This document shows, in pieces, positions 13,030 to 31,635 of a stretch of DNA of 64,000 nucleotides. Each line of letters opens with the position of its first letter. Positions within the stretch are counted from its first letter, which is position 1. The position numbers and the translations under genes were made by a program. Under the pieces are notes generated by a model, which saw only the letters and a list, made by a program, of their open reading frames with translations, searched no databases and was not told the origin of the DNA. The DNA comes from a virus: positions 96,001 to 160,000 of IMG/VR virus record IMGVR_UViG_3300045988_161245; one strand, given 5' to 3'.

Positions 13030-14721
13030 ATGCCTAATGAAGATTTTAGTATAAAAACTGGTATAGAGGTTGATGATAGTAAAGTCAGCCAATTAAAAAG
13101 TATTGCTGATGAGCTTGAAAAAACAGCGAAAGCTTTACAGAAAATTAATAACGTAAAATTTAATGGTGATATTTTCTCTGGGTTGACAAATGCAGGAAAA
13201 AATATTCAAAACGTCACTAAAGAGATTGATAAATTACAGAAGTCTGCCAATGGTGCTGGAAAACCATTAAACAACATTGGAAAAGGCGCAGAAAGTATTG
13301 TTTCAGGAAACTCAACGCAGTTTACATTATTAGATTTAACTTCTATTGATGTAATTAAATCAAGTATGAGTGAAATTGCAGACTCTGCTCAGAATCTTAA
13401 AGAAGCATTAGGATCAGAAGTTACTTCCGGATTAATGACTCAGATTGATGCTATGTTGGCGAAAAAAGATGAGTTACAAAATCTTGCGAACATTTTGAAA
13501 AGCAATAAGGAAGATTTAAATAAGGCTGCGAAAGCAACTGGAAGTAGTAATAAGAAGTCTACAAATAACACATCGTCTTCCACTTCTACTAAAACCCCAA
13601 AATATGTAACTGACCAGTCTTATGTTGGTGATTATAAGACACTTGCAGATAATGAAGCTTTTGTTCATACTCTTAGTACGTTTAGACATAATACAACAGA
13701 AGCTCAAGCCGCCATAGAAGAACGAAATAAAGTTATGGCAAGAGTAAACGCAAAAACACCACAGAACACTTCTGAAATAAATGCAAAGCAGAGATTTGAT
13801 GATATTGATAAGACTATCACAGACAATCTTAGTAAATACGGAAATCGAATTCAGAGCGCCTATGATGCTTTCGACAAGATAAAAGTAGACAAAAGTGGCA
13901 TCGCTGGAATTGAAGATGTATTTAAATCCAGTGAAGAACAGATTAATAAATGGGCTACTGCTGTCGCAAAAGGCAAAATGGGCATTAGTGAATTTGAGAA
14001 GAAAGTCGGTGGATTAAGTGGATCTGTTGGTAGTATTGGTAAAATCATTGATCCTGCAAGTATCACAGATGCAAAAATGGAATTGGAAAGTTATCTGAAA
14101 GAACTTACTAATGTACAGGATATTACTTTTAGTGGATTTACAGAAAAGAATGGAATTGTTTCGCTAAAAGGTACATTTAAGGATAGTGCCGGTGAAGCGC
14201 AGACTTTAAGTGTCCAATTAAATACACTGAATGGACAGATTAAAAATCTTGGAACTTCTGTAAAACCTGTTGAAAGTGGACTAAGTAAATTCTTCTCAGG
14301 TTGGAAAGAAAAAATGGTAAACCTTGCCCAATATTTGACTTCATTCCAGGCAATGAATCAAGTTTGGAATACGTTCAAGCAAGGTTTAGAAATAGTTAAA
14401 GAATTTGATACTGCTCTTACAGAAATGCGAAAAGTATCAGATGAGCCAATCAGTAAGCTGAAAGAATTTCAGAAGGAAAGCTTTGATATGGCTAAGAGCG
14501 TTGGTACTACTGCTCTACAGATTCAGAACAGTACCGCCGATTTCCAGAGGCTCGGAGAATCATTCTCGGATGCCAAGCAGTCAGCTGTAAATGCTAATAA
14601 ATTATTAAATGTATCAGAGTTTGATAATATTGATGATGCAACTTCTGCGCTGATTTCTATGAAAGCTGCGTATAGCGAAGTTGCAGAGTCAGATTTGGTG
14701 GATAAGGTCAACCAAGTAGGT
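13030..14721 (+). CDS. tape measure protein, exon 1
   Basis: Coiled-coil-rich. Ends ..DLVDKVNQVG, which joins exon 2 (NNFSISTDGLASALQRSASAL) to rebuild the conserved TMP core motif. The ORF tail SIMPKHMVTCGVLPC is read-through into the intron. Confidence 0.75.
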
Positions 14722-14853
14722 GTCAGTATTATGCCTAAACACATGGTAACATGTGGGGTTTTACCCTGTTGATAACTATATCGGTAAACGTCTAGCGATA
14801 GATAATACCGAGGTAAGATATTTTAGAATTATATTATGATTAAAGGAGAAGTT

Positions 14854-15027
14854 ATGAAAGATAGTAAATTATATTGTTGTTTTTCAGTTCCACTCAGAGA
14901 TTATTTGATTTCAAATGGTCTTAGGTATGAGGTGTGTGCAAAAAATCCAAATACAGATAATTTGATGTGGATTTTTATTCGAACAGAAAAGCTTAATTCT
15001 CTTTTAAAGCAATGGAGTAATAAATAA
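14854..15027 (+). CDS. intron-encoded DUF5659-like small protein
   Basis: SD aaaggag lies before ATG 14854. Paralog of 5..259. Confidence 0.55.
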   Translation: MKDSKLYCCFSVPLRDYLISNGLRYEVCAKNPNTDNLMWIFIRTEKLNSLLKQWSNK

Positions 15028-15063
15028 TATTATTAATTTTTTAATGAAAGGTATGGATTTATT

Positions 15064-16377
15064 ATGGCAAGACCATCTAATAAAAGTTTTGGAACATGGT
15101 GTGAAGAAAATAATTTAACATATATGATTGATTTATGGGATAATAAATTAAATAAATGCTCACCATATGATATTGCTATGTCAACTGCACATAAGTACTA
15201 CTTTAAATGCAATAGAGGTATTCACGAAAGTGAATTAACATCAATATGCAATATTACTGGCGAAAAGCATTATAGAGTACATTGTAGAAAGTGCAATTCA
15301 TTTGGGCAATGGTGCATTGATAATTCTAAACAAGAATTATTGAATAGGTGGGATAAAAAATTAAATAATTTGGATCCGTTTGACGTTCCATATGGTTCTG
15401 GTAAAAAATATTGGTTTACATGTCCTGTAAATAATCCTAACCACCCAAGTGAACAAAAAATGTTATCTAATGTTGTTCGTCAATCAGGTTCACAAAGATG
15501 TTTAGGATGTGAATCATTTGGACAATGGTGTATTGATAATGTGGATAAAGATTTTATGACAAAATATTGGTCCGATAAAAATACTATTAATCCATTTACA
15601 TTTACATTTCGTTCAGATAGAAAAGTATATATTAAATGCCAGAAAACATCATATCATGACGATTATCTAATTTCTTGTGCTAATTTTGTAAAAGGAAAAA
15701 GATGTTCTTATTGCACTCCTAAAGGACCTACTAAAGTACATAAGTTTGACTCTGTTGGATATAAATTCCCAGATATTTTTAAAATATGGTCAAGTAAAAA
15801 TAAGTATACTCCTTATAATTATACTTTTAGATCGAATAAAAAAGTATTATTTGATTGTCCAAAACATGGTGAATATGAACGAAAAATATGTGATATGTAT
15901 TCATCCTATTTTAAGTGTCCAATGTGCGTACAAGAAGAATCAGCTTCTAAATTACAATATAAAGTAAATTTATATTTAGAATCTCTTGGGTATAAACCTC
16001 TTCACGAACATAATTGCAATCTTCTTCCAAGAAACCCACTAACAAATGCAATTCTTCCATATGATAATGAAATACCAGAATTAAAATTAATTATTGAAGT
16101 AAATGGTATGCAACATTATGAAATAAGTCAGTTTACAGTTTTGTCATCTATGTCGTCAGGAAAAACTCCAGAAGAATGTCTTCAGTATCAAGGAGAGAAA
16201 GATGATTATAAAAGACAATATGCTATAGAGCATGGATATTATTTCTTAGAAATACCATATTTTCTTGATATTGCTTCAGAACCATATAAATATGCAATTG
16301 ATATAGCAATTGATCAATGTAAAGAAAAAATAAGAAATTCTAAAATATCAACCGTAACGACTGCAGGATGTATGTAG
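15064..16377 (+). CDS. intron-encoded homing-endonuclease-like protein (repeated Zn-ribbon modules + PD-(D/E)XK/Vsr-like C-terminus)
   Basis: Four repeats of W..N......WD.KLN..P.D...GS.KKYWF.C plus CxxC, resembling DUF4379 (from memory). The C-terminus LPYDNEIPELKLIIEVNGMQH matches the nuclease core of 541..1497. Confidence 0.65.
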   Translation: MARPSNKSFGTWCEENNLTYMIDLWDNKLNKCSPYDIAMSTAHKYYFKCNRGIHESELTSICNITGEKHYRVHCRKCNSFGQWCIDNSKQELLNRWDKKLNNLDPFDVPYGSGKKYWFTCPVNNPNHPSEQKMLSNVVRQSGSQRCLGCESFGQWCIDNVDKDFMTKYWSDKNTINPFTFTFRSDRKVYIKCQKTSYHDDYLISCANFVKGKRCSYCTPKGPTKVHKFDSVGYKFPDIFKIWSSKNKYTPYNYTFRSNKKVLFDCPKHGEYERKICDMYSSYFKCPMCVQEESASKLQYKVNLYLESLGYKPLHEHNCNLLPRNPLTNAILPYDNEIPELKLIIEVNGMQHYEISQFTVLSSMSSGKTPEECLQYQGEKDDYKRQYAIEHGYYFLEIPYFLDIASEPYKYAIDIAIDQCKEKIRNSKISTVTTAGCM

Positions 16378-16544
16378 TAATATATGTGTTGAAGTTATCC
16401 GTCCTTATATTATAAGGATGTAATATACAGTCTGAACTCACGCAATAATCTAAATTTTATGAAACGTGAGACATAGGTAGAAATGCCTATGCGCCATACT
16501 AATTTTGTGTGGTTAGTAGAGCTTGTCTCGAAAGTAACAGCTTG

Positions 16545-17321
16545 AATAATTTTTCCATCTCCACCGATGGGTTAGCATCAGCATTACAAAGATCAGCATC
16601 TGCTCTTAAAACAGCAGGTAATAATATAGACGAAAGTATAGGATTAATTACGGCAGGCAACCAGGTTGTGCAGGACCCAGAATCCGTTGGTGCCGCAATG
16701 AGAACGATTGCTCTCCGTCTAACAGGAACAAGCGTTGCCGTTCAGCAATTGCAAGAACTTGGCGAAGAGACAGATGGTGTTGTAACAACTGTTTCTAAGC
16801 TTAGAGACGTAATTATGAGCGCAACAAAAGTCGCTTCTAATGGTTTTAAAGGTATAGATATTCTTGATAATAACGGAAACTACCGTTCAACGGCAAGTGT
16901 ATTACAGGATATAGCAGATATCTATAATGAGATCGAAGAAACCGATAAAAAGACCAAAAGTAACAATGTAAATCTTTTGCTTGAAACAATTGCCGGCAAA
17001 AACCGCGCAAATACAGCTGCTAGTATATTGCAGTCACCTGATATTTTAAGGGAAGCAATCGAGTCATCAAAAAATGCGAAAGGCTCGGCAGATCGTGAAA
17101 ATGAGACGTATTTATCTTCGTTAGAAGCTCATATCACCCAACTTCAAACACAGCTCCAAGAGCTTGCAACAGTAACTATCAACTCAGATATGTTTAAAGG
17201 CGTAATAGATACAGCAACCGCCTTTCTTAACATCGTAACTCAGATCCTGGATAAACTTCCACTGCTCTCAACAGCAATTGGTGGTCTTGCAGGATTTAAA
17301 CTTTCAAAAGCAGGTCTGGGT
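16545..17321 (+). CDS. tape measure protein, exon 2
   Basis: NNFSISTDGLASALQRSASALKTAGNNIDESIGLITAGNQVVQDPESVGAAMRTIALRLTG is the typical TMP core. The ORF tail KQLNIKLVSI lies beyond the proposed splice site. Confidence 0.75.
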
Positions 17322-17733
17322 AAACAGCTTAACATAAAGTTAGTTTCAATTTAAAATTTTATCGTAGTTAAGATGCCCATTTGATATGCTGCTGTCATAA
17401 TCGCGACAGTTAGTATAGAACTTGTTCAAGATGGTGATTCGACACCTATTGACAGACCTTTAGCCTTAGAGCTATAAAGCCGAATATCGGAGGAAGCCGT
17501 AATCCACATCACTGTGGTACCTTAGTTCTGAAAATGAATGAAAGGGATATATTGAAGATGGTAGTTCCGACACGTTAGCAAGCACATATGTTTAAATTTA
17601 CAAAAGTGGATGATAAATTCACGAATAAAACGCAATTATAAAAGGAAGAAAGAAATAGAGAGTAGAAAGTTGCAGGTAACAACTCTCCACTCTCTTAAAA
17701 GACTAAAAGGAGATTACAAAAATATGAACTAAA

Positions 17734-17907
17734 CTATTTATTATTTTGGGTGTCATCCTTATAGAATTCTCCAGACATGTCAAATCCTTTCAGGAATCCA
17801 AAATGGATGTGAAAGTTTTTCATGTTCTTAGATGGTATTCTGCGGATTAGCGACCATAGGATTAATAATCCTACAAGAGTTAAAACGAATAGAAATACAT
17901 CTTCCAT
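17734..17907 (-). CDS. small hydrophobic protein (57 aa)
   Basis: Perfect SD aggaaggaggtga lies before the ATG. One TM segment (FLFVLTLVGLLILWSLI). Below the ORF-track cutoff. Confidence 0.35.
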   Translation of the reverse strand: MEDVFLFVLTLVGLLILWSLIRRIPSKNMKNFHIHFGFLKGFDMSGEFYKDDTQNNK

Positions 17908-18364
17908 ATCTCACCTCCTTCCTGTACGAAAGTATCAAGAAAGAGATTTGATGTTGGGAGAATCCCATAGAAATGAATATAATATTTAGAGTACTTCATT
18001 TTAGACAATCTCATTTCTGGTACAAATTGCGTACCAATAATTCAATACTACATGACGACTGTCAGATATACTGTCGTGCAACGGATCATAATGTAGAACT
18101 GTGATCACAAGTATATCTGACTTTGATTGTAGTATAATTGTCTATTTTTGTAAATCCAGAACATATGTGTTTTCATGTAAAAGTGTAGTTTTACAGTTAA
18201 CGTGCGAGAGGCTGACAAAGCATATTATATGTGGCGTTACAACATATAGTATAATATACAGTCCAACCAGGGAAAGCCTGGGTAGCATGATGGATCGAAT
18301 AGTATGGATAGAACCGTGAGGTTACTACTCGCTTACTACCTGAAATGCACTAACTGCACATATT

Positions 18365-18392
18365 CACCACGGCTTGCAAACGTGGTGTTTTT
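18365..18392 (+). terminator. intrinsic terminator inside the intervening element
   Basis: 7-bp stem caccacg/cgtggtg followed by TTTTT. Confidence 0.6.
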
Positions 18393-18424
18393 ATTATTTT
18401 ATTGAAAAAGAAGGTGAATATTTT

Positions 18425-18616
18425 ATGTGTGTTAAAATTTTTGATCATATTTTTTTAATAAGTAATTATGAGGTTATAGATTATTATAATAATGAAGAGG
18501 TAAATAAATTACATAGCCAAATATTACTTTCACCTCAAGATATAAAGGAGTATTTTGAATGGCTCTTTATAAAAGGTAAACATTATTTTTGCGGTCATCC
18601 AGGAGGATTATTGTGA
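18425..18616 (+). CDS. small partner protein, copy 1 (paralog of 29819..30037)
   Basis: SD agaaggtga. MCVKIFDHIFLISNYEV..QDIKEYFEWL compares with MYVKFFDCELFIDSHEI..NNVKDLVEEFL. Its 3' end overlaps the convergent hydrolase gene by 9 nt. Confidence 0.5.
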   Translation: MCVKIFDHIFLISNYEVIDYYNNEEVNKLHSQILLSPQDIKEYFEWLFIKGKHYFCGHPGGLL

Positions 18617-19150
18617 TCTTAAAACAACTGTATTAATATTTGTATTTACATTATTATTTACTTTTGCTCTATCATTTATTATTATTTTCATATCATTAAT
18701 AATGTTAGAAAAATCTTTTTGAGTATCTACAAATAAATCAAAGTCATAATCACCTATAGCCATATAATTTATCGGTAGTAATTTACTAATACGACATTGA
18801 TGTTTTTCAGTACCTATAAGATATATTTGTGGTATTTTACACTTATTAAATCCTACAATAAGTAAATGAATTCCATCATTTGATGCATGATTTTCTTCAT
18901 AATCTTTCACTTCTTTATATACGCATTCTACATCATTTGTGTCTAATAATATTGATTTAATTTCTAAATATATTTTTAGGCAATCAAAATCATTTTTACT
19001 ACCAGCATAAGCAATAACAACTTTATCACTAATTTGATAAATCTTATTCTCGTTTTCAGTAACTATATTACTGTTTTTATCAACGATTCTGGAATCACCG
19101 CACACAATGATATCATTATCTTTAGATATTGCAGCAATAACTAGACTCAT
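18608..19150 (-). CDS. HslV/proteasome-beta-like Ntn hydrolase, Ser1 type, copy 1
   Basis: M-SLVIAAISKDNDIIVCGDSR..NKIYQISDKVVIAYAGSKNDFD..YMAIGD aligns with HslV [49 protein letters not shown]. Confidence 0.65.
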   Translation of the reverse strand: MSLVIAAISKDNDIIVCGDSRIVDKNSNIVTENENKIYQISDKVVIAYAGSKNDFDCLKIYLEIKSILLDTNDVECVYKEVKDYEENHASNDGIHLLIVGFNKCKIPQIYLIGTEKHQCRISKLLPINYMAIGDYDFDLFVDTQKDFSNIINDMKIIINDRAKVNNNVNTNINTVVLRSQ

Positions 19151-19189
19151 GTTATACCTCCAATTTTATATTTTAAATATGTTAAAAAA

Positions 19190-19621
19190 TCATTTAAATA
19201 TTCCATTGGCAATATCGGTAATAAATTTAGGATCAGTAACAGCTACTTTAGCAACTTCTACACATACTGCTGAGATCATATTTATAGAAGAAATACCTAC
19301 AGATTTTAATTTAGCTTTACTCTTCCTCCATATAGAGTCAGGTCTAATTGATTCTGCTAATTTATGTCCTTCGAATGTAACATCATAAATTTTACAGTTT
19401 TCATATTTATAGTTATCATCTATAGAATACGATCCTTCTAAGAATCTTCCGTCAAATAAGTTTTTCACACAATATTGTACATCCTCTTCAGTGTATTTGC
19501 CTGAAAAGTGATCCTTTATATCTTTTAACATAATCCGCTTGAAATCTCCATTAAGTTTCATATTATCTTGTTCTTCAATATATAAGAGTACATCTCTAAA
19601 ACAATCATAGTTTAATATCAT
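19190..19621 (-). CDS. DUF2513-like winged-helix protein
   Basis: SD ggagg lies before ATG 19621. CFRDVLLYIEEQ.. and ..VTFEGHKLAESIRPDSIWRK match the DUF2513 pattern (..GHdFLd.iR....W). The family name is from memory. Confidence 0.6.
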   Translation of the reverse strand: MILNYDCFRDVLLYIEEQDNMKLNGDFKRIMLKDIKDHFSGKYTEEDVQYCVKNLFDGRFLEGSYSIDDNYKYENCKIYDVTFEGHKLAESIRPDSIWRKSKAKLKSVGISSINMISAVCVEVAKVAVTDPKFITDIANGIFK

Positions 19622-19652
19622 ATTCAATCCTCCATAGAAAGGTCGTGAAAAT

Positions 19653-19922
19653 ATGTTGTGGTCAATTTCTGAGACAGAAAATATTGCAACAAAAATTATT
19701 AAATTGTTATACGAAAATAATTGTACTGATGAAGGTGATATTGAAACCACATTTACATTAGTACGAAATCATTTTAAGAATATGTCCATTGATGACATTA
19801 TTAAATTCGAAACAACTGGTAAGATGCCGGAAATTGACGTTCATGGTAATCTTACTCAAATTATAAAACAAGTTTCTAGTCAAATAGCTGATGAGTTTTT
19901 GGAAGAACATGGTATTAAATAG
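19653..19922 (+). CDS. hypothetical acidic protein
   Basis: ORF with a weak RBS gaaagg. Antisense to the minus-strand operon. Its coding status is uncertain. Confidence 0.35.
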   Translation: MLWSISETENIATKIIKLLYENNCTDEGDIETTFTLVRNHFKNMSIDDIIKFETTGKMPEIDVHGNLTQIIKQVSSQIADEFLEEHGIK

Positions 19923-20106
19923 GTTGTTTTCCAGGTTTCCAAGAATACCAACAAGCTGCACACCTGTTCACGGTTTTATTACTTCCTAAGAAACCAGTTA
20001 TCAACGAGTAACCACGCTGTCCGGTAGTGATCTGAGTGCTTCCACAGCGAGGACAGTGAACAGTATTGGTTTTTGTATTAATTTGTATTAGGTTTATTAT
20101 ATTTTT
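19915..20106 (-). pseudogene. orphan Zn-ribbon coding remnant without a start codon
   Basis: The open frame encodes ..TNTVHCPRCGSTQITTGQRGYSLITGFLGSNKTVNRCAACWYSWKPG. This resembles the C-terminus of 21006..21545 (HCPKCNGTNFTP..GFATNKVELVCNNCGY). It has no ATG/GTG/TTG start and overlaps the upstream stop in another frame. Confidence 0.4.
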
Positions 20107-20764
20107 CTATATGTTCCTTTATTGTAGTCTTGACTAAATTATGTAATTTAATTTGATAATTAAGCAATACATTATAATTATATTTTGTTGTTGACAAAAA
20201 ATATTCCGTTATCTCTATAAATAATGAACGAAACATATCTGGTACATACTTATAACTATAAACATATTCGATATTATGCTTTTTAAGTGATGTCAAATAT
20301 CCAACACAATAATATAAAAGTCTTTCGTCACAATATACCTCACCTTTTAAAATAGGATCATTTGGTAATATAAAACTCTCAGTTAAATTTACTATTCCTT
20401 TATCTACATATTTTTTATATGAGAAATTTTCTATTTTTAAATGTATATCCATTTCAACTTCTGAAGCGTGAACTTCAGAATATATGTACATTAATTTAAT
20501 AAAATCTTCAAGCGGATAATTTAATAACTGAGTAGAATCATATACATGTGTGAACTCGTGAAAGAAAATTCCTTTGTATATTTTTGATTCATCTAATTGT
20601 TTGTTAACTTTTAGTATATATTTTTGATTATACAATTCCAATGTATTGAATTGTGCGGCTGCACAATCTCTTTTGTCAACTTCAATATATTCTTGTATTT
20701 CTGGAATTTCATAATATAACTCGTTGTATTCCTTAAATATTTTATCAAGATACTCTTTGTTCAT
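20078..20764 (-). CDS. HExxH zincin-like metallopeptidase
   Basis: FFHEFTHVYD motif. SD aggaga lies before ATG 20764. The family is unassigned; an ImmA/IrrE-like assignment is only a guess. Confidence 0.55.
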   Translation of the reverse strand: MNKEYLDKIFKEYNELYYEIPEIQEYIEVDKRDCAAAQFNTLELYNQKYILKVNKQLDESKIYKGIFFHEFTHVYDSTQLLNYPLEDFIKLMYIYSEVHASEVEMDIHLKIENFSYKKYVDKGIVNLTESFILPNDPILKGEVYCDERLLYYCVGYLTSLKKHNIEYVYSYKYVPDMFRSLFIEITEYFLSTTKYNYNVLLNYQIKLHNLVKTTIKEHIEKYNKPNTN

Positions 20765-20793
20765 TTTTATCTCCTGCATAGAAAGGAATTATT

Positions 20794-21000
20794 ATGATAA
20801 AAAACAAAATGCTAATTATTAGATTAAAACGTGATATATTATATCTAAAGTTTAAGAGTTTAAAAGTAGATATTAAGTTTGCAATTAAAAAAGTATATTA
20901 TAGAATTTTCGACAGCAAAAAGTACCAAAATCTCCTACAAACTCAAAAAGATATGCAAGAGATTTTGGATGCAATTGACGACAGAATGAACTGGGTGTAG
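20794..21000 (+). CDS. hypothetical basic protein
   Basis: RBS gaaagga. Antisense to the minus-strand operon. Its coding status is uncertain. Confidence 0.3.
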   Translation: MIKNKMLIIRLKRDILYLKFKSLKVDIKFAIKKVYYRIFDSKKYQNLLQTQKDMQEILDAIDDRMNWV

Positions 21001-21005
21001 TAGCT

Positions 21006-21545
21006 TTAATTTTCAGCCTTCATTCTATAACCACAGTTGTTGCACACTAACTCCACTTTATTAGTAGCAAATCCCATGAATAGTCCATATTTCTTCCTAA
21101 CCGGTGTAAAGTTGGTGCCGTTACATTTTGGACAATGACGAGTGTTAACTTCCTGCTGTTTTGCATTTTGTTGTGCTAAATATTCATTGTATCTTTTATC
21201 TAATTCTTCTTCAGCCTTGGCATTTATAATGTTCATTTGATTAGTATATTTGATGATGTCATTTGTATATAAATCGAACATTGTTGCAACAAAACCAGGA
21301 TCATTATTACCATATTCACAGAAATTAAACATATCGTTAAAACTCATATTAGGAACTGGTGTTAATTTATTTCCACATCCAGGACATAAATCTAAACTTT
21401 CACCACTAAGAATACCTGCATAATCTTTAGGTTTATTTGAACTTATTGAAAACATAGATTTTGTGCGTCCTTGTGGTTGTTTAAGTTTATTTCCACTTTT
21501 TAAAATGCATTCTCTACAATAATATATAATCTTATTAGAACTCAT
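21006..21545 (-). CDS. double Zn-ribbon protein
   Basis: CRECI..CPGC at the N-terminus and CPKC..CNNC at the C-terminus. SD ggaggt. Confidence 0.5.
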   Translation of the reverse strand: MSSNKIIYYCRECILKSGNKLKQPQGRTKSMFSISSNKPKDYAGILSGESLDLCPGCGNKLTPVPNMSFNDMFNFCEYGNNDPGFVATMFDLYTNDIIKYTNQMNIINAKAEEELDKRYNEYLAQQNAKQQEVNTRHCPKCNGTNFTPVRKKYGLFMGFATNKVELVCNNCGYRMKAEN

Positions 21546-21578
21546 ACGCCAACCTCCAAAATATAATATTATAATGCA

Positions 21579-21607
21579 AGTATAACATTATATTCTCCAA
21601 TATTCAA
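21579..21607 (-). promoter_or_regulatory. sigma-70-like promoter of the minus-strand cargo operon
   Basis: TTGAAT-N17-TATACT on the minus strand. The -35 element lies 3 nt from the proposed 3' splice site. Confidence 0.45.
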
Positions 21608-21610
21608 TTG

Positions 21611-24600
21611 GTCTTTAACTACGATAAAGCAACAGGAAAAGTTGGAAGTAATAAAAATAATTTAGAAAATGCATTAACAGAAGTAAAAGATTTCTTTCTA
21701 AAAAAACAGGATATAGAAAAGCCATATACACTTAGCAAAGATGAATATTCATTTTTTGAGAGAATGAAAAAAGAGCTTTCTGATTCTCAGTTAAATGGAT
21801 CTGCGGAAGATTCTAAAGATGCAATGCTACAACTGGCAGAAGAAATTACAGGTGCAGATAGCTCATTGGTCAAATATATCCAAGACACAGATGTAGCGTC
21901 TGTTTCTCAAGTCGGTTTTGCTCAATCACAAAAAACAGTAATTCAAGGAACAACTAAATTTAGTGCTGTAATGAAAACGGCCGGTGGAGTAGCAAAATCA
22001 TTTGTAGCTACCCTTGGAAGTATGGCTGTAGCCGCCGCAGCAGCTTGGGCTATCGGTAAAGTAATTGAGGGTATTGATTATCTTTATCATTACGATGAAA
22101 ATATCATCAAAGCTGGACAGGAAGCAAAGGATTCCATTGACAGTACATTTAAAAGTTTCGAAGAAGGTAAGCAGTCTATCATGGACCTTGGCTCTTCATT
22201 TGGCAATCAGACAGAGCAGATAAAAAATACCGGTGATGCAATCGATCAAGTTGCCGAAAAATATGTAGAGCTTCGTAAGGGAGTAAATCAGAATACAAAC
22301 GAGAATGTATCATTATCTACAGACGAGTATCAGCAATATATTGATCTCAGTAGTAAGCTTGCCTCTCAGTTTCCTGGTCTGGTAGCAGGTTATGATAGTC
22401 AGGGAAATGCTGTATTAAATCTTGCTTCCAATGCAGATAAGGCTGCTGATAGTATTCGTAATTTATATGAAGCACAAGTTTCTTCTGCAAATGTTGATAT
22501 GGGGAAAAATCTACAAGCAACATATGATGGTGTTGTTACACAGACAAGTCAATATGCTGAGGATATCCAGAAAAAACGTGATGAGTTAGAACAATTAGAT
22601 ACTGATATTTCTGAGAACAAACGTAGTATTTTAACATATGGAAGTAACAATTTTGAAGTACAAGGGCTGTATGGTGATAAAGAAAATGTTATTACTGATG
22701 TTCTAAAAGAGAATGGACTGTATAAAGAAAATACAGGAGATGACGGAAGTATTTGGAACTTCTATGCCGAAGGTCTCGCTGATAAGTCAAAAAAAGAAAT
22801 AGATAGGATGAATGAACAGATTACAGCTGGTTTGGAATCCTATAACTTGTCACTAGAGACTCAAAGAAGCCAACTTCAGAGTGAAATTAACTCCTACGAT
22901 TTAATGATTGAAGATCAATGGCGTAGTATGGCACAATCTCTTGGAAACTATCTTCAGACATCAAAATCATTTAATGAACTTGATGATAGTCTTCAAAGTG
23001 CATTTCTTGCCAACATTTCAAACCTTGACTTAACTGCCTTAAATGATCCAGATGGTAAATACCAAGGACAGGTGCTTGATTTCTTGTATGGAGAATTCAT
23101 TGGACCAATGTCTCGGTTTAGTGCGGATGTACAAGAAAGTCTTGCAGATGCATTACAGATTGATCCTTCTAAATTGACTATTGATGAGTATAAGTCACAA
23201 GTTGATGAAGCATTTAATAAAGCATTTCCAAAGGAAGAAGATGCAGATAAACGAGATAGATTCAAAAACGCTTATGGAATTGATTCTTCTATTGAGGATA
23301 TGGAGGATAATGCATCTCGTCTCAAAGAAGCATATGCAGATTTTCCAAATGCCAGTGATTTTATTGACCATATGCAGACAGGTGATCTGTCAATTGCTGC
23401 ACAGTTAATTGATAATGGTTCAGTTGATATTGAGAAAGGCACAGATGGATTAGTTTCTGCCATTGAAAGATATAAGAAAACGGTAGCTGAAGCAAAATCT
23501 GATACAACTCTTGCTTCTGTTCTTGGCGATTCCGATAATGAAATCTCATCTTCTATTGATTCTTTACAGTCAGATATTTCTTCTTTATCAGATACTCTTA
23601 CCAAGCTTAAAACAGGTGAGTTCAAAGATTCAGATCTCACCGACCTTATTCAACAGTTTCCACAGTTAGCCGATCAAACAGATAATCTTCAAGAAGCTAT
23701 CTCCAATCTTCAGGCAGATAAATTAAAGTCTACTTTGAAAAAAATTGACGATTCTATGGATGGAGCTTCTGATGAAGAGTTAGCTAATGCACAAAAATTA
23801 AAAGATTCTTTAATTAAGTCAGTTGACCTATCTGATATTAATTCAGACAAGATTACAGAATCAATCAAAAGTGCTTTTGAAGGTGATGGCGGAAGTAGGT
23901 ATATTGCTGCAGAACATGGAGCAAAAGCTGCTGAAGAATACAACCAAGCATTTTCAAAAGAACTTAAAAATAGTGCTGGACGAGAAGCTTTCTATAAGGC
24001 AACATTAAATCAAGATGCTGTAAAACAGGGACCTGATGCAATACGTGAATTATATAATCAGTATTTAAAGACAGCCAAAGACATCATCCAAGATACAGAT
24101 ATCCAATCACAGCTTACAAATTATCAGGATAAATACCAGTCACTCTATCAAGCTCAGAAAGATCTAAAGAACGGTCTAATGACTGGTTCTACCAAAAAGA
24201 CATTTCTGGACAAGTTTCCAGATCTTGCAAAGTATGCAGGAAACACTGAAACACTCTCTTCTGCTATTGATGATCTGATGGATTCTATGGACAGTGATGT
24301 AACTAACCAGTTTACAGATGCTATTAAAGCTCTTCAGGATGCCGGACAGTATGCAGATGCAAGTGCATTACAATCTTATGTTGAAGCTGTTTTAGATGGT
24401 GCCCATGATATCGAGGGTGCTTATCAGAAGATCGCAGGTCTTAAAATTCCTACACCTAAGTACGCAGAACTTAAAGAAGCTCTTGAATCTTCAAACGAGG
24501 GTGATCTTTACAATGAACTTCTCTCTCAGTATAAAACCGCAAAAGAGGCATGGGAAAAAGGTGAAGTTGGTACAGATGACTTTAAGTCTTTTGCTTCTAT

Positions 24601-27600
24601 TATTTCTCCTACAGGTGTATCTGATGCAGTAAACTTTGGTGAGAATCAAGCAATGTTTGAAAGATACTTCCAGGATACATCTACTGGTGTTGAGAACTTC
24701 TTAGAAGATCTACAGAAGCTTGACCTTGCTTCTAATGAAAGTGGTCATTGGACCAGTACATTAGGAAATAACCTTGATGAAATGCGAGACGCTGCACAGA
24801 GACTTAATATGGGCTTTGAACCATTTATGATGATGTTTGGTCGTCTCGAAGATTATGGTGCTACTACTGACTTCTTCACTACGGAAGAGGATGGGCAACA
24901 GCATTTATCTGATCTCTATCAGCAGATTGCAGAAAAGAAACAAAAACTTGCAGAAATTAAAGCAGATCCGGATTTAGCTGGCGATCAGTCTGCTATTGAT
25001 TCTCTCAATAAAGATTTAGATGAACTTTATGCGAGAGTAGAAAATACAAAAACTGGAATTGAAGAGCTTCCGGACAAAGCAACTTATTATGAAGCAAAGA
25101 ATCTCGAACAGGCTAAATCAGTTATCACTCAGATGCAGGACGAAATTAATCAGGCAGCTGCAGAAGGAAATGATGAATTAGTCAAAATTCTTGAAAAGAC
25201 TCGTGATCAATATTTAAAAGAAAACGGATATATTCTTAAAGAACAGCCACAAGGTCCAACTCAGCAAGGGACTATTGAAAATCCGTTAGCAAGAGAATTC
25301 ACAAATCCAACTAAATTTGGCGATTATGAGACAGTCATCAAGAAGATTCAGAATGCGACAGATGAACAGACATCTTCTCTTGAGAAAAATCTTAAAGTAT
25401 TAAGCCAATATTCTGAATCTCAGCTCAGTGGAATCAATTTATCCGATGGACAGTATGATACCGGTTTTGAGGATGCCGAACAAGCACTTGACAACCTTTC
25501 TAGCACATTTGGTCTTACAAAAGATCAAGCGGTACAGTTAGCAGCTGTTCTTTCTGATATGGGGCTGATTAAAGCAACTCCTAAAGTTGACTTAACTACA
25601 GTTCAGGATCAGATTGATAATGCAAAAGATGAGTTACAGGATAGTAATATTACTGTTGATTTAGATTTTGATATTTCTACTTCTAGTAAAGAAGAACTTC
25701 AAAAAAAGAGTCAAGAAATTCAGAATGAGCTGAATAATAACGCATCTCTTTCTGATTCTCAAAGAACATCTTTACAGGGAGTAAAAGATTCTGTTGATAA
25801 CCAGGTTGTTACGCTTACAGTACAGGAAAAAGTTGAAAAAGATGGTGATGTAGACGAGCTTCTTGCAATGGATGATCAAACACTTGCCACAACACTTGAC
25901 CTTGATGTTAATAATGCTGACCAATTATCAACAGCTAGGGATGAGCTACAATATATTAAAGACAATCAAGATGCTCAAATTGATATGACTGTTAAACTGG
26001 ATGAGACACAGTTTAATCAGCTATTAGGTGACGGTGAGAACGCTTCTATTGATGTTACAGCAAACAATGAAGAAGCAAAAGAAAAGATAGATGAAGCTAA
26101 GAACTATGCAGAAAGTCAGAAACCTCAAATGAAAATTGATGGCAACAATGATCCTGCTATCAATAAAGGTACTTCTGCTACTCAGATGATCAACAACATG
26201 ACTGGAATTATTAAGGTTAATGCTGACACATCGGGTATGGCAAGTGCTATTAATTCTGAATTGTCAAAGCCTCATACTATCAATATTTCCGCAAATGTGT
26301 CTACGCATGTTAGTGGTGGAACAGGTAAATCTACAGGAACTATGATTAGTGTCGCTCATGCCGATGGAACTGCTTATAATGTTATCAATTATACTCCTGC
26401 TCACGCAAGCGGAAATGTAACACTTTCACATGATGAAACTGCTTTAGTTAACGAAGAAGGCATTGGCGCTGAATCAATTGTGCGTGATGGTAAATGGATG
26501 ATTATTCCTGGTGGTGCCCATTTTGAAAATCTAAAAAAAGGTGACTTAATCTTCAATAAAAAGCAGACATCCGAGCTTATCAATTCAGGACATGTTACAT
26601 CTGGAGGTGGACATGCTAGAGCTTATGCAAATGGTACTGTTGGTGCTTATGCAGGAGGTAATTCTGGTGTTTATTTAAACTGGGATAAAAATCGTACTCA
26701 AGTTGGCAATCAGTCAACATCATCTCCCTCTAATTCCACAATTACCGATAAAAATACAACTTCTGTTAAGAAAAATACAGACACCGTAAATGACAATACC
26801 GAAAAGATAAAAAAATCTACTAAGGTATATGACTGGGTAGAAACTCGTATTAAGCATTGGTCTGATCAGGTTCAAAAAATCGCTGATAAAATCACCGACT
26901 ATATTAAGAAATCACTTAAAACATCTTTGCTCAAACAGCAAATTCGTAAGATGAACTATGAGATTGGTTCAAATGAAAAGGGTGCAAAAGCCTATATGAA
27001 AAAGGCTAACTCTATAGCAAACGAGTACACTTATTACAATAGTGATGGCGAAGAAATTAAAACCAATGTACCAAAGAAATATCAGAAGCTTGTCCAAACA
27101 GGTGCTTATCGTATTGAAGATATGGACACTTCAACAGATCAGGGTAAGGCTCTGGCAGAGGCTATCGATCAGTATAAGACATATTATGACAAAGCACAGG
27201 ATTGTAAACAGGCTGTTGTTGATCTGAAAAAAGAGCAGCTGGAATTGTTTGAACAGTGGGCAAATATGCCAACTGAAAAAGCAGAGCAGAAATTGGAACG
27301 TTTACAAAACGGATTTAATGGATTGAATGCAACTCAGTCAAGGTTATCTGCTGTTCAGACAGGTGGATCAACACAAAAAGCTATAGCAGACGCTGCTACT
27401 GCAAGTTACGAATCAGCACAGGTAGTTACAGAAAAAGCACAATCAAATCTTGACACAGCAACTGCGAAAGCAGATAAGGCAACTACAGCTGTAAATAGAA
27501 AGAAAAAAGCACTTCTTAAATCAAAAGGTCTTACGAATGAGCAGAAAAAAGCTATTAAATCCGGAAAGACTATTGATACCAGTAAGATTACTAACAAGAC

Positions 27601-29755: not shown

Positions 29756-29765
29756 ACACAGGATG

Positions 29766-29796
29766 GCGTAGTGTCACAGCTACGCTCTCTTTTATT
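29766..29796 (+). terminator. weak terminator after the TMP gene
   Basis: Stem gcgtag/ctacgc followed by tctctttta. Confidence 0.35.
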
Positions 29797-29818: not shown

Positions 29819-30037
29819 ATGTATGTAAAATTTTTTGATTGTGAATTATTTATTGATTCACATGAAATAAAAATAAAAAATAAAAGAGGAAGTTCCGGAC
29901 AATCTTATGGCGAACATTTTATTCCACCAAATAATGTAAAGGATCTCGTTGAGGAATTTCTAGTTCCAACTGTGTATCAACATAAGTGTATTGAAGAACT
30001 TATGAAAAGAAAACCAGATCCTAACATTAAGTGGTAG
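29819..30037 (+). CDS. small partner protein, copy 2
   Basis: SD agaggtg. Paralog of 18425..18616. Its 3' end overlaps the convergent hydrolase gene by 11 nt. Confidence 0.5.
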   Translation: MYVKFFDCELFIDSHEIKIKNKRGSSGQSYGEHFIPPNNVKDLVEEFLVPTVYQHKCIEELMKRKPDPNIKW

Positions 30038-30587
30038 GCGATATATTTTCATTAGCAGTAACCGTACCATTAATTGATGAATCTGTTCTAGCTCTTTCTT
30101 CAATCATTTTTGCAATTTTAAATTTGATTGCTTTAATATCATCATTTTCTTTATCAAAATTTAATACACAATCCAAATCTCCTATAGAGACAGTTCTTTC
30201 TTTAAAATAGTCATAGTTGCCAATAGCTGTTTCACTAGCTCCAATAACATACAAATGTGGATTATTATTACTATCATAACCGGCAGCTAAAAAATGTAAA
30301 TCACCTTTTTCATTTTTATAATTTTCTTTTTCGTATTTTAAAGCTTCTTTATAGATGCTATCAACATCCCATTTACTGTAGTCAAGATGAACTAAATTTA
30401 TATGTATTCTTAAAGGTGTTATTTTTGTATCGTGACCAGCAAAAGCAACAATTAAAGAATTGTTAAATTTAAAGACTTTTCTTGTATCTTCTGTAAGAAC
30501 TTCATTAGTTATTGGATTTACAGATCTTCCTTCTCCGTACACAATAATATCATTATCTTTTGAGATTGCAGCAATTACTAGACTCAT
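30027..30587 (-). CDS. HslV/proteasome-beta-like Ntn hydrolase, Ser1 type, copy 2
   Basis: The first 16 aa (MSLVIAAISKDNDIIV) are identical to copy 1. This is followed by YGEGR..RKVFKFNNSLIVAFAGHD..SIGD. SD gggagag lies before ATG 30587. Confidence 0.65.
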   Translation of the reverse strand: MSLVIAAISKDNDIIVYGEGRSVNPITNEVLTEDTRKVFKFNNSLIVAFAGHDTKITPLRIHINLVHLDYSKWDVDSIYKEALKYEKENYKNEKGDLHFLAAGYDSNNNPHLYVIGASETAIGNYDYFKERTVSIGDLDCVLNFDKENDDIKAIKFKIAKMIEERARTDSSINGTVTANENISPTT

Positions 30588-30627
30588 CTTCTCTCCCATC
30601 CTTCAAACAAATCTATATATAAAATCC

Positions 30628-30656
30628 ATTATGATTCAAGTAATAATTTTTGTCAA
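30628..30656 (-). promoter_or_regulatory. sigma-70-like promoter for 30027..30587
   Basis: TTGACA-N17-CATAAT on the minus strand. Confidence 0.5.
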
Positions 30657-30687
30657 TAATAGTCTGAATAGAAAGTAGGTGATTAAT

Positions 30688-31635
30688 ATGGCTATATTTG
30701 GCTCTTCTTTTACATATAACGGAAAATCTTCCGATGATTTTGGAGTTATTATTTGTGCCTCTGAACAGCCAGAATCAATTCCAATGGGATTAACAAGAGA
30801 AATTTTAAAAGGTGAAATTACAAGCAGACGACCTGTATCAAATTGGTATAATACAAAATATTCAGATGTACTTACATTTGAAGTAACAATTACCAAACCT
30901 GAAAATCGTGCTTTTTCAAGAGAAGAAGTTAGAGATATAAACGCCTGGTTAACAGGACCACGTACACCTACTCTTCTATTTTTTGAAGATGAAGCTTTTG
31001 ACCCTATTAATTATTATGGAGTTTTTACAGATGTAACTAACGTATATGGCAGTGGTGTTTTAATGCTTACATATACATTTACTGCAGATTCCCCATATGG
31101 ATGGAGTAACGAACGTGAGTTTGCTTACAACAACTTAGAGAATTGTTTACTTACAGTAAATGATAAAAATGTATCTGTAAACAATAAAAATGTTGAGGTG
31201 ACAATTCAAAACGCAGAATTATTTGAAGTGAACAATGATACAGATGAGATTGGTGATTTTACATATCCGTTAATAGCAATTTATTCTTATGCAGGTACGC
31301 AAATTACAATTGATAATTATTCCGAAATTTCTACTGATGATTTATTAAGTCATAGTCTTACTCTTACAATTCCAAATGCAATTGATTACACAAATCCACT
31401 TTATATAGATTCAAAAAATCATAAAATTTATTATTACAGTAATACAAAGAAAAAGAATATTCCGGTTCAATTATCCGATCTTGGGGTTACATCTGACAAC
31501 CTTACAAATTTAGATAATGGTAGTTTGGGATTATATTGGGTTAGGTTAGTTCCTGGTGTAAACAAATTTAAAATAACAGGTGGATGCAGTATTAAAATGA
31601 CATTCAGATGCCCAAGAAAGGTAGGTGCCTATTAA
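30688..31635 (+). CDS. distal tail protein (Dit)-like
   Basis: Lies directly after the TMP region. The N-terminus FTYNGKSSDDFGVII..ILKGEITSRRP is typical of siphovirus tail-family proteins. Confidence 0.6.
   Translation: MAIFGSSFTYNGKSSDDFGVIICASEQPESIPMGLTREILKGEITSRRPVSNWYNTKYSDVLTFEVTITKPENRAFSREEVRDINAWLTGPRTPTLLFFEDEAFDPINYYGVFTDVTNVYGSGVLMLTYTFTADSPYGWSNEREFAYNNLENCLLTVNDKNVSVNNKNVEVTIQNAELFEVNNDTDEIGDFTYPLIAIYSYAGTQITIDNYSEISTDDLLSHSLTLTIPNAIDYTNPLYIDSKNHKIYYYSNTKKKNIPVQLSDLGVTSDNLTNLDNGSLGLYWVRLVPGVNKFKITGGCSIKMTFRCPRKVGAY

What the first reader, a model, noticed from the sequence alone, without database searches (positions are those of the whole stretch)
18425..19150. Convergent, 3'-overlapping two-gene module: small protein + HslV/proteasome-like Ser-Ntn hydrolase (copy 1 of 2)
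The 180-aa minus-strand protein aligns well with HslV and proteasome beta subunits. The N-terminal strand, a GD(S)R element, a Lys33-like NK-IYQI element and AYAG..D are all present. However, it has Ser where the nucleophilic Thr1 should be, and it lacks the GSGG loop. It is paired tail-to-tail with a 63-aa plus-strand protein, overlapping by 9 nt. The same pair, in the same geometry, recurs at 29819-30587. I know of no described phage function or defence/anti-defence system built on a proteasome-like hydrolase with such a partner. Conservation of the architecture across two diverged copies argues that it is a functional unit, for example protease with inhibitor or substrate, or antisense-coupled expression.
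Basis: partly seen in the sequence, partly recalled or inferred. Interest (0 to 1): 0.85.

Follow-up and report, generated by a model that had tools for sequence, protein, structure and literature searches.

The report
Swappable phage proteasome-like hydrolase and partner
A group of large gut phages carries, on both sides of its giant tail tape-measure gene, an exchangeable two-gene cassette made of a proteasome-like enzyme and a small partner protein; the way the cassette evolves resembles toxin-immunity loci, which suggests an undescribed conflict system.

Summary
Both minus-strand ORFs (18608-19150 and 30027-30587) pass Pfam's Proteasome threshold. The AlphaFold model (pLDDT 89.5) matches 20S beta subunits and HslV. 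Ser2, Asp/Glu19, Arg21, Lys36 and Gly50 align with Thr1, Glu17, Arg19, Lys33 and Gly47.

The convergent small ORFs are real genes (dN/dS 0.09-0.25). They belong to one family of 64 clusters, although the two window copies are related only at profile level.

New here: the pair is a swappable cassette. Phage contigs 97-99.6% identical in the flanks carry unrelated cassette types. The breakpoints lie in the conserved 5' ends of the two convergent genes. The same type sits upstream of the tape-measure gene in one phage and downstream of it in another. Orphan partner genes persist under purifying selection, one with a displaced hydrolase 3' remnant. A distant family member lies in a bacterial defence island.

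The best reading is an accessory conflict cassette: an active Ser-Ntn peptidase plus a co-inherited small regulator or inhibitor, with expression of the two opposed by convergent transcription. The function is inferred, not shown. It is not HslV. Phage proteasome homologues are already catalogued, but no conserved partner or context has been reported for them.

The parts
18608..19150 (-). Hydrolase copy 1 (type 1a), 180 aa. It is a proteasome-fold Ser-Ntn hydrolase that starts Met-Ser, preceded by a GGAGGT Shine-Dalgarno sequence.
   Evidence: ORF. Pfam PF00227, 34.2 bits. AlphaFold2 pLDDT 89.5. Foldseek matches 20S beta and HslV, TMq up to 0.78. Catalytic mapping.
18425..18616 (+). Small partner 1 (type 1a), 63 aa. 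It has a four-strand beta-meander, a helix and a disordered C-terminal tail that ends GHPGGLL. GAAGGTG RBS at 18410-18416.
   Evidence: ORF. Family alignments A2 and A4. 64 clusters. Model pLDDT 81. dN/dS 0.25 against L001.
18365..18399 (+). Terminator-like hairpin (CACCACGG...CGTGGTG) followed by a T-run, about 25 nt upstream of the RBS of small partner 1.
   Evidence: Read from the sequence. RNAfold of the upstream regions of several cassettes shows an equivalent hairpin at both sites. This is only a consensus-type signal.
19095..19161 (-). Conserved 5' end of the hydrolase gene (codons for MSLVIAAISKDNDI...) plus its RBS. This is the right-hand recombination breakpoint of the cassette.
   Evidence: blastn homology between cassette types is limited to this stretch. 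Synonymous differences show the constraint is on the protein.
18405..18445 (+). Conserved RBS and first seven codons of the small gene (MxVKIFD). This is the left-hand recombination breakpoint of the cassette.
30027..30587 (-). Hydrolase copy 2 (type 2a), 186 aa from the Met-Ser start. An upstream in-frame ATG at 30599 is unlikely to be the start.
   Evidence: Pfam 25.6 bits. 32% identical to copy 1. Conservation begins exactly at MSLV in all members.
29819..30037 (+). Small partner 2 (type 2a), 72 aa.
   Evidence: A2 profile hit, E 2e-30. dN/dS 0.09 against L031 and L039.
29765..29786 (+). Terminator-like hairpin followed by a T-run, lying between the TMP stop codon (29755) and small partner 2.
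30628..30656 (-). Sigma-70-like promoter (TTGACA-17-CATAAT, 11 of 12 matches) in front of hydrolase 2, divergent from the Dit gene.
   Evidence: a consensus match only. The intergenic region is 90% conserved in L001-L004.
21006..21545 (-). Context: a Zn-ribbon protein of 179 aa. It is the first gene of the minus-strand unit that ends with hydrolase 1, and it is divergent from the giant TMP gene. It is conserved at this position in all relatives.
   Evidence: In L035-L037 it lies directly next to the hydrolase.
19190..20779 (-). Context: variable cargo between the Zn-ribbon gene and hydrolase 1. Here it is a DUF2513 winged-helix protein (19190-19624) and a 233-aa HExxH-motif protein (20078-20779). 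Related phages have this cargo replaced or absent.

Best explanation
This is an accessory, recombination-shuffled two-gene cassette carried by a lineage of roughly 180-260 kb AT-rich gut phages. One gene encodes a stand-alone proteasome-fold N-terminal-nucleophile hydrolase. It is most likely an active peptidase whose Ser1 is exposed by removal of the initiator Met. The convergent gene encodes a 63-72 aa protein that is inherited and exchanged together with the variable body of the hydrolase. I infer that this protein is the hydrolase's cognate regulator, most probably an inhibitor or 'immunity' protein. I also infer that the cassette works in conflict, either phage against host or phage against phage. 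The hydrolase would be made from its own promoter on the strand opposite the tail genes. The partner would be made only when late tail transcription reads through a terminator-like hairpin, and that transcription would also run antisense into the hydrolase gene. Shown here: the fold, the catalytic residues, the coding status of both genes, the geometry, cassette exchange, and orphan partners. Inferred: peptidase activity, a physical interaction between the two proteins, the timing of expression, and the conflict role.
For: Fold and active site:
- Pfam Proteasome is above threshold for both copies.
- The family profile hits 20S subunits in the PDB, E 1e-6.
- A confident model matches 20S beta and HslV, TMq up to 0.78.
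- S2, D/E19, R21, K36 and G50 align with Thr1, Glu17, Arg19, Lys33 and Gly47. Apart from Ser/Thr at position 2, they are conserved across a broad family of 238 representative clusters.

Partner gene:
- It belongs to a family of 64 clusters.
- dN/dS is 0.09-0.25.
- It is always convergent with the hydrolase, overlapping it by 9-29 nt.

Unit of inheritance:
- The window and L009-L014 are 97-99.6% identical on both sides of the cassette but share no homology from 18446 to 19116.
- Type 1a is at the upstream site here and in L024, but at the TMP-Dit site in L001-L004 and L025.
- L024 carries a chimeric hydrolase.
- The two genes diverge together, rho 0.64-0.76.

Dynamics like those of toxin-immunity loci:
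- Orphan partner genes occur in at least 24 contigs.
- One orphan has about 40 nt of displaced hydrolase 3' end beside it.
- Orphans remain under purifying selection.

Conflict context:
- Both sites are hotspots for variable cargo.
- Family member P0127 lies next to PARIS (AriA/AriB) and the defence candidate PDC-S33 in a bacterial defence island.
- Another member lies in a non-tail mobile element.

Expression signals:
-, consensus matches only.
Against: There is no direct evidence that the two proteins interact or that the enzyme is active. The equivalents of Ser129, Asp166 and Ser169 and the GSGG loop could not be aligned. Immunity genes are normally co-directional with, and co-expressed with, their toxin; a convergent overlap instead implies opposed expression. 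Co-divergence is expected from linkage alone. One comparison breaks it: L001A against L009A gives 33% for the hydrolases but 58% for the partners. Orphan partners under selection could equally mean that the small protein works independently of any hydrolase. PADLOC has no hit for either protein. The association with the tape-measure gene persists in distant relatives, which could point to a tail-related role. In distant family members the convergent ORF is unrelated or absent.
Confidence: 0.45

Rival explanations
1. The two genes are independent and merely share a hotspot. The small ORFs would be late, tail-strand accessory genes with their own function. The hydrolase would be an unrelated moron inserted next to them. 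The overlap would simply reflect tight packing.
For: Orphan small genes persist without a hydrolase and stay under purifying selection. The small genes lie on the tail-gene strand, directly after the TMP. Both sites hold other cargo in some phages. Distant hydrolases lack a homologous partner.
Against: No hydrolase of the clade lacks an abutting family partner: 26 of 26 plus 11 more. The cassette breakpoints enclose both genes. The stop-codon overlap is kept in every type. The orphans can be traced to displaced cassettes, with a hydrolase 3' remnant beside one of them.
Confidence: 0.2
2. The hydrolase is a morphogenetic protease. It would process the giant tape-measure protein or other tail proteins, and the small protein would be an assembly cofactor.
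For: The modules flank the 2715-aa TMP gene. Even members that share only about 20-25% identity sit between large tail proteins.
Against: The hydrolase is encoded on the strand opposite the tail operon. Its alleles are swapped between near-identical phages and differ by about 65% in sequence, which is unexpected for an enzyme matched to a conserved substrate. One relative has a split gene (L011). Some phages have other cargo at the TMP-Dit site. Family members also occur in a bacterial defence island and in a non-tail mobile element.
Confidence: 0.12
3. The enzyme is a connectase-like ligase or transpeptidase, or a maturation enzyme, and the small protein is its substrate. It would act on the partner's disordered C-terminal tail (GHPGG in type 1, P-x-N-P-N in type 2) rather than degrading proteins.
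For: Connectase is a proteasome homologue that ligates proteins (cited in PMC8665760). The partner has a conserved motif in a disordered tail. That tail is encoded in or next to the overlap with the hydrolase 3' end.
Against: No sequence or fold match specific to connectase was obtained; the top structural matches are 20S beta and HslV. The tail motifs differ between types. The partner's fold is not ubiquitin-like and matches nothing in the PDB.
Confidence: 0.07
4. The coupling is purely regulatory and antisense. What matters would be the convergent overlap, acting as a transcriptional switch that turns the hydrolase off in late infection. The small protein itself would have no biochemical link to the enzyme.
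For: The overlap of 9-29 nt leaves no room for a terminator between the genes. There is a promoter-like site for hydrolase 2 and there are terminator-like hairpins before the small genes.
Against: The small ORF is conserved as a protein, with low dN/dS and a confidently predicted fold. That would be unnecessary for a purely transcriptional role. Orphan copies are maintained without a hydrolase to regulate.
Confidence: 0.1

Closest known systems
Proteasome beta subunits and HslV (peptidase family T1; Pfam PF00227)
   Same: The alpha-beta-beta-alpha Ntn fold. An N-terminal hydroxyl nucleophile directly after the initiator Met, as in HslV. Equivalents of Asp/Glu17, Arg19, Lys33 and Gly47.
   Different: The nucleophile is Ser, not Thr. 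No GSGG / Ser129-Asp166-Ser169 region could be recognised. The HslV equivalog models score far below their cut-offs (17 bits against 138-158). No AAA+ partner is present in the gene tables of related loci (up to 10 kb on each side). The gene is carried by a phage, is polymorphic, and is paired with a small convergent gene.
Catalogued prokaryotic and phage proteasome homologues (PPH, AAH, CPH, Firmicute clusters FC1-FC5; Fuchs, Alva & Lupas 2021, PMC8665760)
   Same: Stand-alone proteasome-like proteins in phages and Firmicutes that keep the Thr1/Ser1-Asp17-Lys33 triad and Gly47 and have no AAA+ partner.
   Different: That survey reports no genomic context or co-occurrence pattern for any of the new families. 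Here a conserved partner gene and cassette behaviour are seen. PPH is about 140 aa and lacks helix H2. This protein is 180 aa and has both helices of the first pair. I could not test whether it belongs to one of the FC clusters, because their sequences were not on hand.
Polymorphic toxin-immunity loci (CDI CdiA-CT/CdiI, Rhs, colicin or pyocin immunity arrays). Comparison from general knowledge, not from a tool.
   Same: A conserved N-terminal part with a variable remainder of the effector. An adjacent small cognate gene. Replacement by recombination at the conserved part. Displaced 3' fragments and orphan partner genes that are retained.
   Different: No secretion or delivery domain is present. 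The effector has a proteasome fold. The two genes converge and overlap rather than being co-directional. The carrier is a phage tail module. Neither toxicity nor neutralisation has been shown.
Accessory-gene (moron, defence or anti-defence) hotspots in phage genomes. Comparison from general knowledge.
   Same: Genes on the strand opposite the late operon, with their own promoter-like signal, in positions where the cargo varies between near-identical genomes.
   Different: The hydrolase-partner pair is itself a fixed feature of the hotspot at two positions, and it varies by allele replacement rather than by presence or absence.

Membership tests
Proteasome / T1 Ntn hydrolases (Pfam PF00227) | Sequence score above the curated family threshold | tested here: met
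   34.2 and 25.6 bits against a gathering score of 22.4. The family profile hits 20S subunits in the PDB, E 1e-6.
Proteasome / T1 Ntn hydrolases (Pfam PF00227) | Four-layer alpha-beta-beta-alpha Ntn fold | tested here: met
   AlphaFold2 pLDDT 89.5, pTM 0.87. Foldseek probability 1.00 to 20S beta subunits and HslV, TMq 0.59-0.78.
Proteasome / T1 Ntn hydrolases (Pfam PF00227) | N-terminal Thr/Ser nucleophile plus Asp/Glu17, Lys33 and Gly47 | tested here: met
   hhalign against the verified T. acidophilum beta sequence pairs D19 with Glu17, R21 with Arg19, K36 with Lys33 and G50 with Gly47. By register, S2 corresponds to Thr1. In the broad family R21, K36 and G50 are invariant, D19 is at least 90% conserved, and position 2 is Ser or Thr.
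Proteasome / T1 Ntn hydrolases (Pfam PF00227) | Supporting residues Ser129, Asp166 and Ser169 (GSGG region) | tested here: inconclusive
   The C-terminal half does not align by profile. The family has a conserved IGD and a conserved [ST]-V-N motif instead.
Proteasome / T1 Ntn hydrolases (Pfam PF00227) | Exposure of the nucleophile, ring assembly and peptidase activity | not testable with these tools
   This needs N-terminal sequencing, native mass measurement or cryo-EM, and activity assays.
HslV (ClpQ), the proteolytic subunit of HslVU | Equivalog-level sequence match | tested here: not met
   TIGR03692 scores 17.4 bits against a cut-off of 157.75. NF003964 scores 17.1 against 137. Copy 2 has no hit.
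HslV (ClpQ), the proteolytic subunit of HslVU | Adjacent HslU-type AAA+ unfoldase | tested here: not met
   No AAA+ gene appears among the Pfam-annotated genes within up to 10 kb on each side in related loci. The rest of the roughly 200 kb genome was not examined.
PPH (proteasome homologue of phages and their hosts; PMC8665760) | About 140 residues and no helix H2 | tested here: not met
   The proteins are 180-186 aa. The model has both helices of the first pair, at 52-65 and 74-88.
Firmicute clusters FC1-FC5 (PMC8665760) | Sequence clustering with the published representatives (WP_075525441.1 and others) | not testable with these tools
   Only the accession numbers are available. The supplement holds no sequences.
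Polymorphic effector-immunity cassettes | Conserved 5' part, variable remainder, and replacement by recombination at the conserved part | tested here: met
Polymorphic effector-immunity cassettes | Orphan partner genes and displaced effector fragments | tested here: met
Polymorphic effector-immunity cassettes | Effector toxicity, and specific neutralisation by the cognate partner | not testable with these tools
   This needs co-expression and cross-neutralisation experiments.
Known anti-phage defence systems (PADLOC-DB v2) | Match to a catalogued defence protein model | tested here: not met
   Neither the hydrolases, the partners nor the island genes have a hit. The distant member P0127 has no hit either, although its neighbours match AriA, AriB and PDC-S33.
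Type II toxin-antitoxin operon | Co-directional, co-transcribed gene pair | tested here: not met
   The genes converge and overlap at their stop codons in every instance.

The most novel reading that the evidence does not exclude
This is a phage-borne polymorphic effector-immunity system built on a proteasome fold. The Ser-Ntn protease would be made early, or in a carrier state, and would destroy proteins of competing phages or of host defences. One possible target is incoming tape-measure or ejection proteins, which would explain why the cassettes flank the TMP gene. The small protein would be the allele-specific inhibitor, produced together with the phage's own late tail proteins to protect them. 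Orphan inhibitor genes would be retained to resist the proteases of rival phages.
Probability: 0.2. Interest if true: 0.85.

Novelty: new variant of a known kind. Interest (0 to 1): 0.7.

Why it matters
More than twenty families of prokaryotic and phage proteasome homologues have been catalogued. Their discoverers stated that no genomic context or co-occurrence pattern pointed to a function (PMC8665760). Here one such family has a fixed partner gene, a fixed geometry and an evolutionary pattern typical of arms-race loci: allele replacement, chimeras and orphan partners. One relative also lies in a bacterial defence island. This gives a concrete hypothesis that can be tested with cognate and non-cognate pairs, for an enzyme class that so far has no known role in viruses. 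If the hypothesis holds, it would add a self-contained protease-inhibitor module to the known means of phage-phage and phage-host conflict. It would also supply naturally diversified inhibitors of proteasome-like enzymes.

Tried and rejected
- Homing or intron origin of the invariant hydrolase N-terminus: rejected. The 14 invariant residues are encoded with synonymous differences, and Rfam finds nothing at either site.
- Membership of HslV: rejected.
- Known defence or anti-defence protein: no PADLOC hit. PHROGs gives only a weak hit to an unknown-function family and to 'peptidase HslV family'.
- Known phage: no nucleotide or protein match in the INPHARED phage collection.
- Prophage in sequenced bacteria: the clade is absent from the GTDB species representatives. 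A broader pattern found only one distant member, in a Eubacteriales MAG.
- Fold of the small protein: no significant match in the PDB.
- Ubiquitin-like precursor idea, prompted by the GHPGG-LL tail: rejected. The predicted topology is beta-beta-beta-beta-alpha, not a beta-grasp, and type 2 partners have no Gly-Gly.
- Partners of distant hydrolases: the convergent ORFs in L017 and L049 are unrelated. The 96-aa ORF in L020 is conserved but is only marginally similar to the family (hhalign E 0.006, probability 6%).
- Zn-ribbon and HExxH neighbours: no relative in the PDB.
- Two alignments were too diverse for the genome pattern search.
- Literature searches for a function of phage proteasome-like proteins or for a defence role returned nothing specific.
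Full report
**The observation**

A 180-aa ORF lies at 18608-19150 on the minus strand. It converges on a plus-strand ORF whose ATG is at 18425 and whose stop is at 18616, so the two overlap by 9 nt. A second pair lies at 30027-30587 (-) and 29819-30037 (+) and overlaps by 11 nt. The two large proteins are 32% identical (E 9e-27). The two small proteins give no BLASTP alignment with each other, so their relatedness had to be established through relatives, as described below.

**Setting**

The window is AT-rich phage DNA (GC about 0.29-0.37). The tail genes are on the plus strand:
- a TMP-like gene interrupted by an HNH endonuclease gene (13030-17354);
- a 2715-aa tape-measure-like ORF (21608-29755), whose relatives' gene tables show no Pfam hit;
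- a DUF6558 distal-tail protein (30679-31635);
- large fibre proteins.

Pair 2 sits between the TMP and the distal-tail gene; I call this site B. Pair 1 ends a minus-strand block that is divergent from the TMP; I call this site A. That block runs from a Zn-ribbon protein (21006-21545), through an HExxH-motif protein and a DUF2513 protein, to hydrolase 1.

The phage has no relative in the INPHARED collection. The hydrolase clade is absent from the GTDB species representatives. Related contigs of 50-260 kb come from human-gut metagenomes and IMG/VR.

**What the large protein is**

- Both copies pass Pfam's curated threshold for Proteasome, with 34.2 and 25.6 bits against 22.4.
- A profile of 24 family members hits 20S subunits in the PDB, with the best E-value 1e-6.
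- The AlphaFold2 model is confident (pLDDT 89.5, pTM 0.87).
- Foldseek places the model among 20S beta subunits and HslV with probability 1.00 and TMq up to 0.78. In BFVD it matches uncharacterised phage proteins, some of them named HslV.
- I verified my recalled T. acidophilum beta and E. coli HslV sequences against the PDB and aligned the family profile to them. Asp19 (Glu in other alleles) pairs with Glu17, Arg21 with Arg19, Lys36 with Lys33 and Gly50 with Gly47. By register, Ser2 corresponds to Thr1.

An exhaustive profile search finds 238 representative clusters at E <= 1e-3. They are nearly all 175-200 aa and start MS(I/L)(V/I)(I/L)A or MT.... In an alignment of 29 diverse members, M1, R21, K36 and G50 are invariant, and D19, E32 and G100 are at least 90% conserved.

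The C-terminal half, which would hold the Ser129/Asp166/Ser169 GSGG region, does not align. The family has its own IGD and (S/T)-V-N motifs there.

The protein is not HslV. The equivalog models score 17 bits against cut-offs of 137-158. No AAA+ gene lies within up to 10 kb on either side in related loci.

A Met-Ser start with no propeptide implies, by analogy with HslV, that methionine aminopeptidase exposes the nucleophile. This is inference. An active peptidase is therefore likely but not shown.

**What the small ORF is**

The convergent ORFs next to hydrolases in related contigs align with the two window ORFs. They share M-x-(V/I)-K-(I/F)-F-D...F-I...E-(I/V) at the N-terminus and a V-K-(D/E) helix start. 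A profile of six finds 64 clusters.

Close pairs give dN/dS of 0.09-0.25, similar to the hydrolase at 0.16-0.29. They are therefore protein-coding genes.

The model (pLDDT 81; above 90 for residues 1-40) has four strands in a meander, one helix and a disordered tail. It has no significant match in the PDB. Type 1 tails carry GHPGG or AHGG, and type 2 tails carry P-x-N-P-N.

**Co-occurrence**

An HMM scan of all loci then fetched found 26 hydrolase genes of the clade. Each has a family small ORF that converges on it and overlaps it. The 11 hydrolases in loci fetched later have one as well. The overlap is 9-29 nt in every type.

**The pair is a swappable cassette**

- blastn of the window against L009-L014 gives 97-98% identity for 17300-18445 and up to 99.6% for 19192-21700. 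Between 18446 and 19116 there is nothing. The proteins encoded there are only about 35% and 32% identical.
- Homology between cassette types survives only at the RBS and first seven codons of the small gene (18405-18445) and at the first 14-19 codons of the hydrolase (19095-19161).
- The 14 invariant hydrolase residues are encoded with synonymous differences, so the constraint is on the protein.
- The same type moves between sites. Type 1a is at site A here and in L024. It is at site B in L001-L004 and in L025, between flanks that match the window's site B at 82-96%.
- L024 carries a chimeric hydrolase. Its N-terminal part is of the L001 kind. Its C-terminal part and its partner are of the window kind.
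- At least six types exist: 1a, 1b, 2a, 2b, 2c and 3.
- Divergence of the hydrolase and of the partner is correlated (Spearman 0.64-0.76). Linkage alone would produce this, and one comparison breaks the pattern.

**Orphan partners**

- In L001-L004 a type 1b partner sits between the TMP and the resident 1a pair. It is identical in protein to the partner of a type 1b hydrolase in L033. The two copies differ by three synonymous changes and no non-synonymous change.
- In L031 and L039-L043 a type 1a partner (P0053, at least 24 contigs) precedes a resident type 2 pair.
- Next to the L039 orphan, about 40 nt of the 1a hydrolase 3' end survive. They encode NSSINTNINTII, compared with NN(N/G)(V/I)NTNIN(T/A)V(V/I) in intact genes.
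- The orphan 1a genes give omega of 0.17-0.18 against paired ones.

Replacement at a conserved 5' part, displaced 3' remnants and retained orphan partners are the pattern known from polymorphic toxin-immunity loci. That comparison rests on general knowledge, not on a tool result.

**Expression signals (consensus matches only)**

- Hydrolase 2 has TTGACA-17-CATAAT just upstream.
- The site A block has a TG-extended promoter-like site next to the TMP start, and a strong minus-strand terminator at 17695-17657, beyond a 57-aa membrane ORF.
- The first small gene at either site is preceded by a hairpin and a T-run about 25 nt before its RBS. The hairpin sequences differ between the sites.
- With no space between the convergent genes, their transcripts must overlap.

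**Breadth**

- Members at about 20-25% identity (P0114, P0138) also lie on the strand opposite to large tail proteins, with a Zn-ribbon protein upstream.
- P0114 has a conserved 96-aa convergent ORF that is only marginally similar to the partner family.
- Other convergent ORFs are unrelated or absent.
- One member lies beside HTH_36, DUF5697 and DUF6100 genes, not tail genes, in a Eubacteriales MAG; I read this as a mobile element.
- P0127 lies between an HNH protein and a RelA/SpoT protein that matches the defence candidate PDC-S33 (E 6e-112). Next to these are AriA and AriB of PARIS.

**Interpretation**

The enzyme class, the geometry and the co-inheritance are established. The most economical functional reading is an accessory conflict cassette, consisting of an active Ser-Ntn peptidase whose variable body sets its specificity and a small co-inherited protein that regulates it. 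The small protein is most plausibly an inhibitor. Its expression would be tied to late tail transcription, which would also silence the hydrolase through antisense transcription.

I put this at 0.45. The rivals are:
- independent neighbours sharing a hotspot (0.20);
- TMP processing (0.12);
- purely antisense coupling (0.10);
- a connectase-like enzyme acting on the partner's tail (0.07).

**Comparison with the literature**

Fuchs, Alva and Lupas (PMC8665760) catalogued phage and Firmicute proteasome homologues that keep the Thr1/Ser1-Asp17-Lys33 triad. They explicitly found no informative genomic context for them. I found no paper that assigns a function to a phage proteasome homologue.

The enzyme class in phages is therefore known. 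The partner gene, the cassette behaviour and the orphan arrays appear to be undescribed. I rate this a new variant of a known kind, with interest 0.7.

Noticed in passing
window 13030-17354: A TMP-like gene appears to be interrupted. 13030-14772 matches phrog_4211 positions 497-720, and 16509-17354 matches positions 722-942. An HNH homing-endonuclease ORF (15064-16377) lies between them. This looks like an intron or intein-type insertion. Rfam finds no intron there at E <= 1. L005 has a single 851-aa PhageMin_Tail ORF, which may be the uninterrupted counterpart; this was not checked.
   Followed up: partly
window 5354-5660 and 5700-5987: Two group I introns lie in tandem on the plus strand (Rfam RF00028, 82 and 72 bits). 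A homing-endonuclease-like ORF lies at 541-1497. The phage appears to be rich in introns.
   Followed up: no
window 17985-18424 (+): An ORF-free stretch of about 440 nt lies upstream of small partner 1. It is 97-98% conserved in L009-L014. It folds better than all 100 shuffles, z = -3.3, and ends in the terminator-like hairpin. It has no Rfam match. It may be a structured leader or a non-coding RNA.
   Followed up: partly
window 17734-17907 (-) and 17657-17695 (-): A 57-aa ORF with a hydrophobic helix (VFLFVLTLVGLLILWSLI) is followed by a 17-bp-stem terminator on the minus strand. It is also called as a gene in L009, L012, L014 and L037. It may mark the end of the minus-strand unit that contains hydrolase 1.
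   Followed up: no
window 58644-61725 (-): Adjacent ORFs match the PHROG families for transposase (phrog_310) and DNA transposition protein (phrog_296). This suggests Mu-like replicative transposition in a phage of about 200 kb.
   Followed up: no
window 19190-21545 (-) and the equivalent regions of L009-L014 and L035-L038: The cargo between the conserved Zn-ribbon gene and hydrolase 1 varies between near-identical phages. It can include a DUF2513 protein, a 228-233 aa HExxH protein, or proteins of 184, 304 or 318 aa, or nothing at all. This is a hotspot in its own right. None of the window's cargo proteins matches PADLOC.
   Followed up: partly
L044 5177-10259: This is a bacterial defence island: HNH protein, proteasome-like P0127, a RelA/SpoT protein (PADLOC PDC-S33, E 6e-112), then AriA and AriB of PARIS. 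HNH, hydrolase and RelA/SpoT may form one operon, which would make them a candidate defence system.
   Followed up: partly
L011 6182-6699: The hydrolase is split into fragments of 88 and 58 aa, while its partner gene is intact. This is either a pseudogene or an assembly error.
   Followed up: no
L005 156-380 (-): At the TMP-Dit site this phage has, after the same terminator-like hairpin and RBS, an unrelated helical small ORF of about 58 aa instead of a partner-family gene. The locus ends before it can be seen whether a hydrolase follows.
   Followed up: no
L020 4473-5588; L021 463-1320: In the distant P0114 lineage, the gene upstream of the hydrolase is a T5orf172/MUG113 protein in one contig and a Bro-N/ANT anti-repressor in another. 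This again shows variable cargo next to the hydrolase.
   Followed up: no
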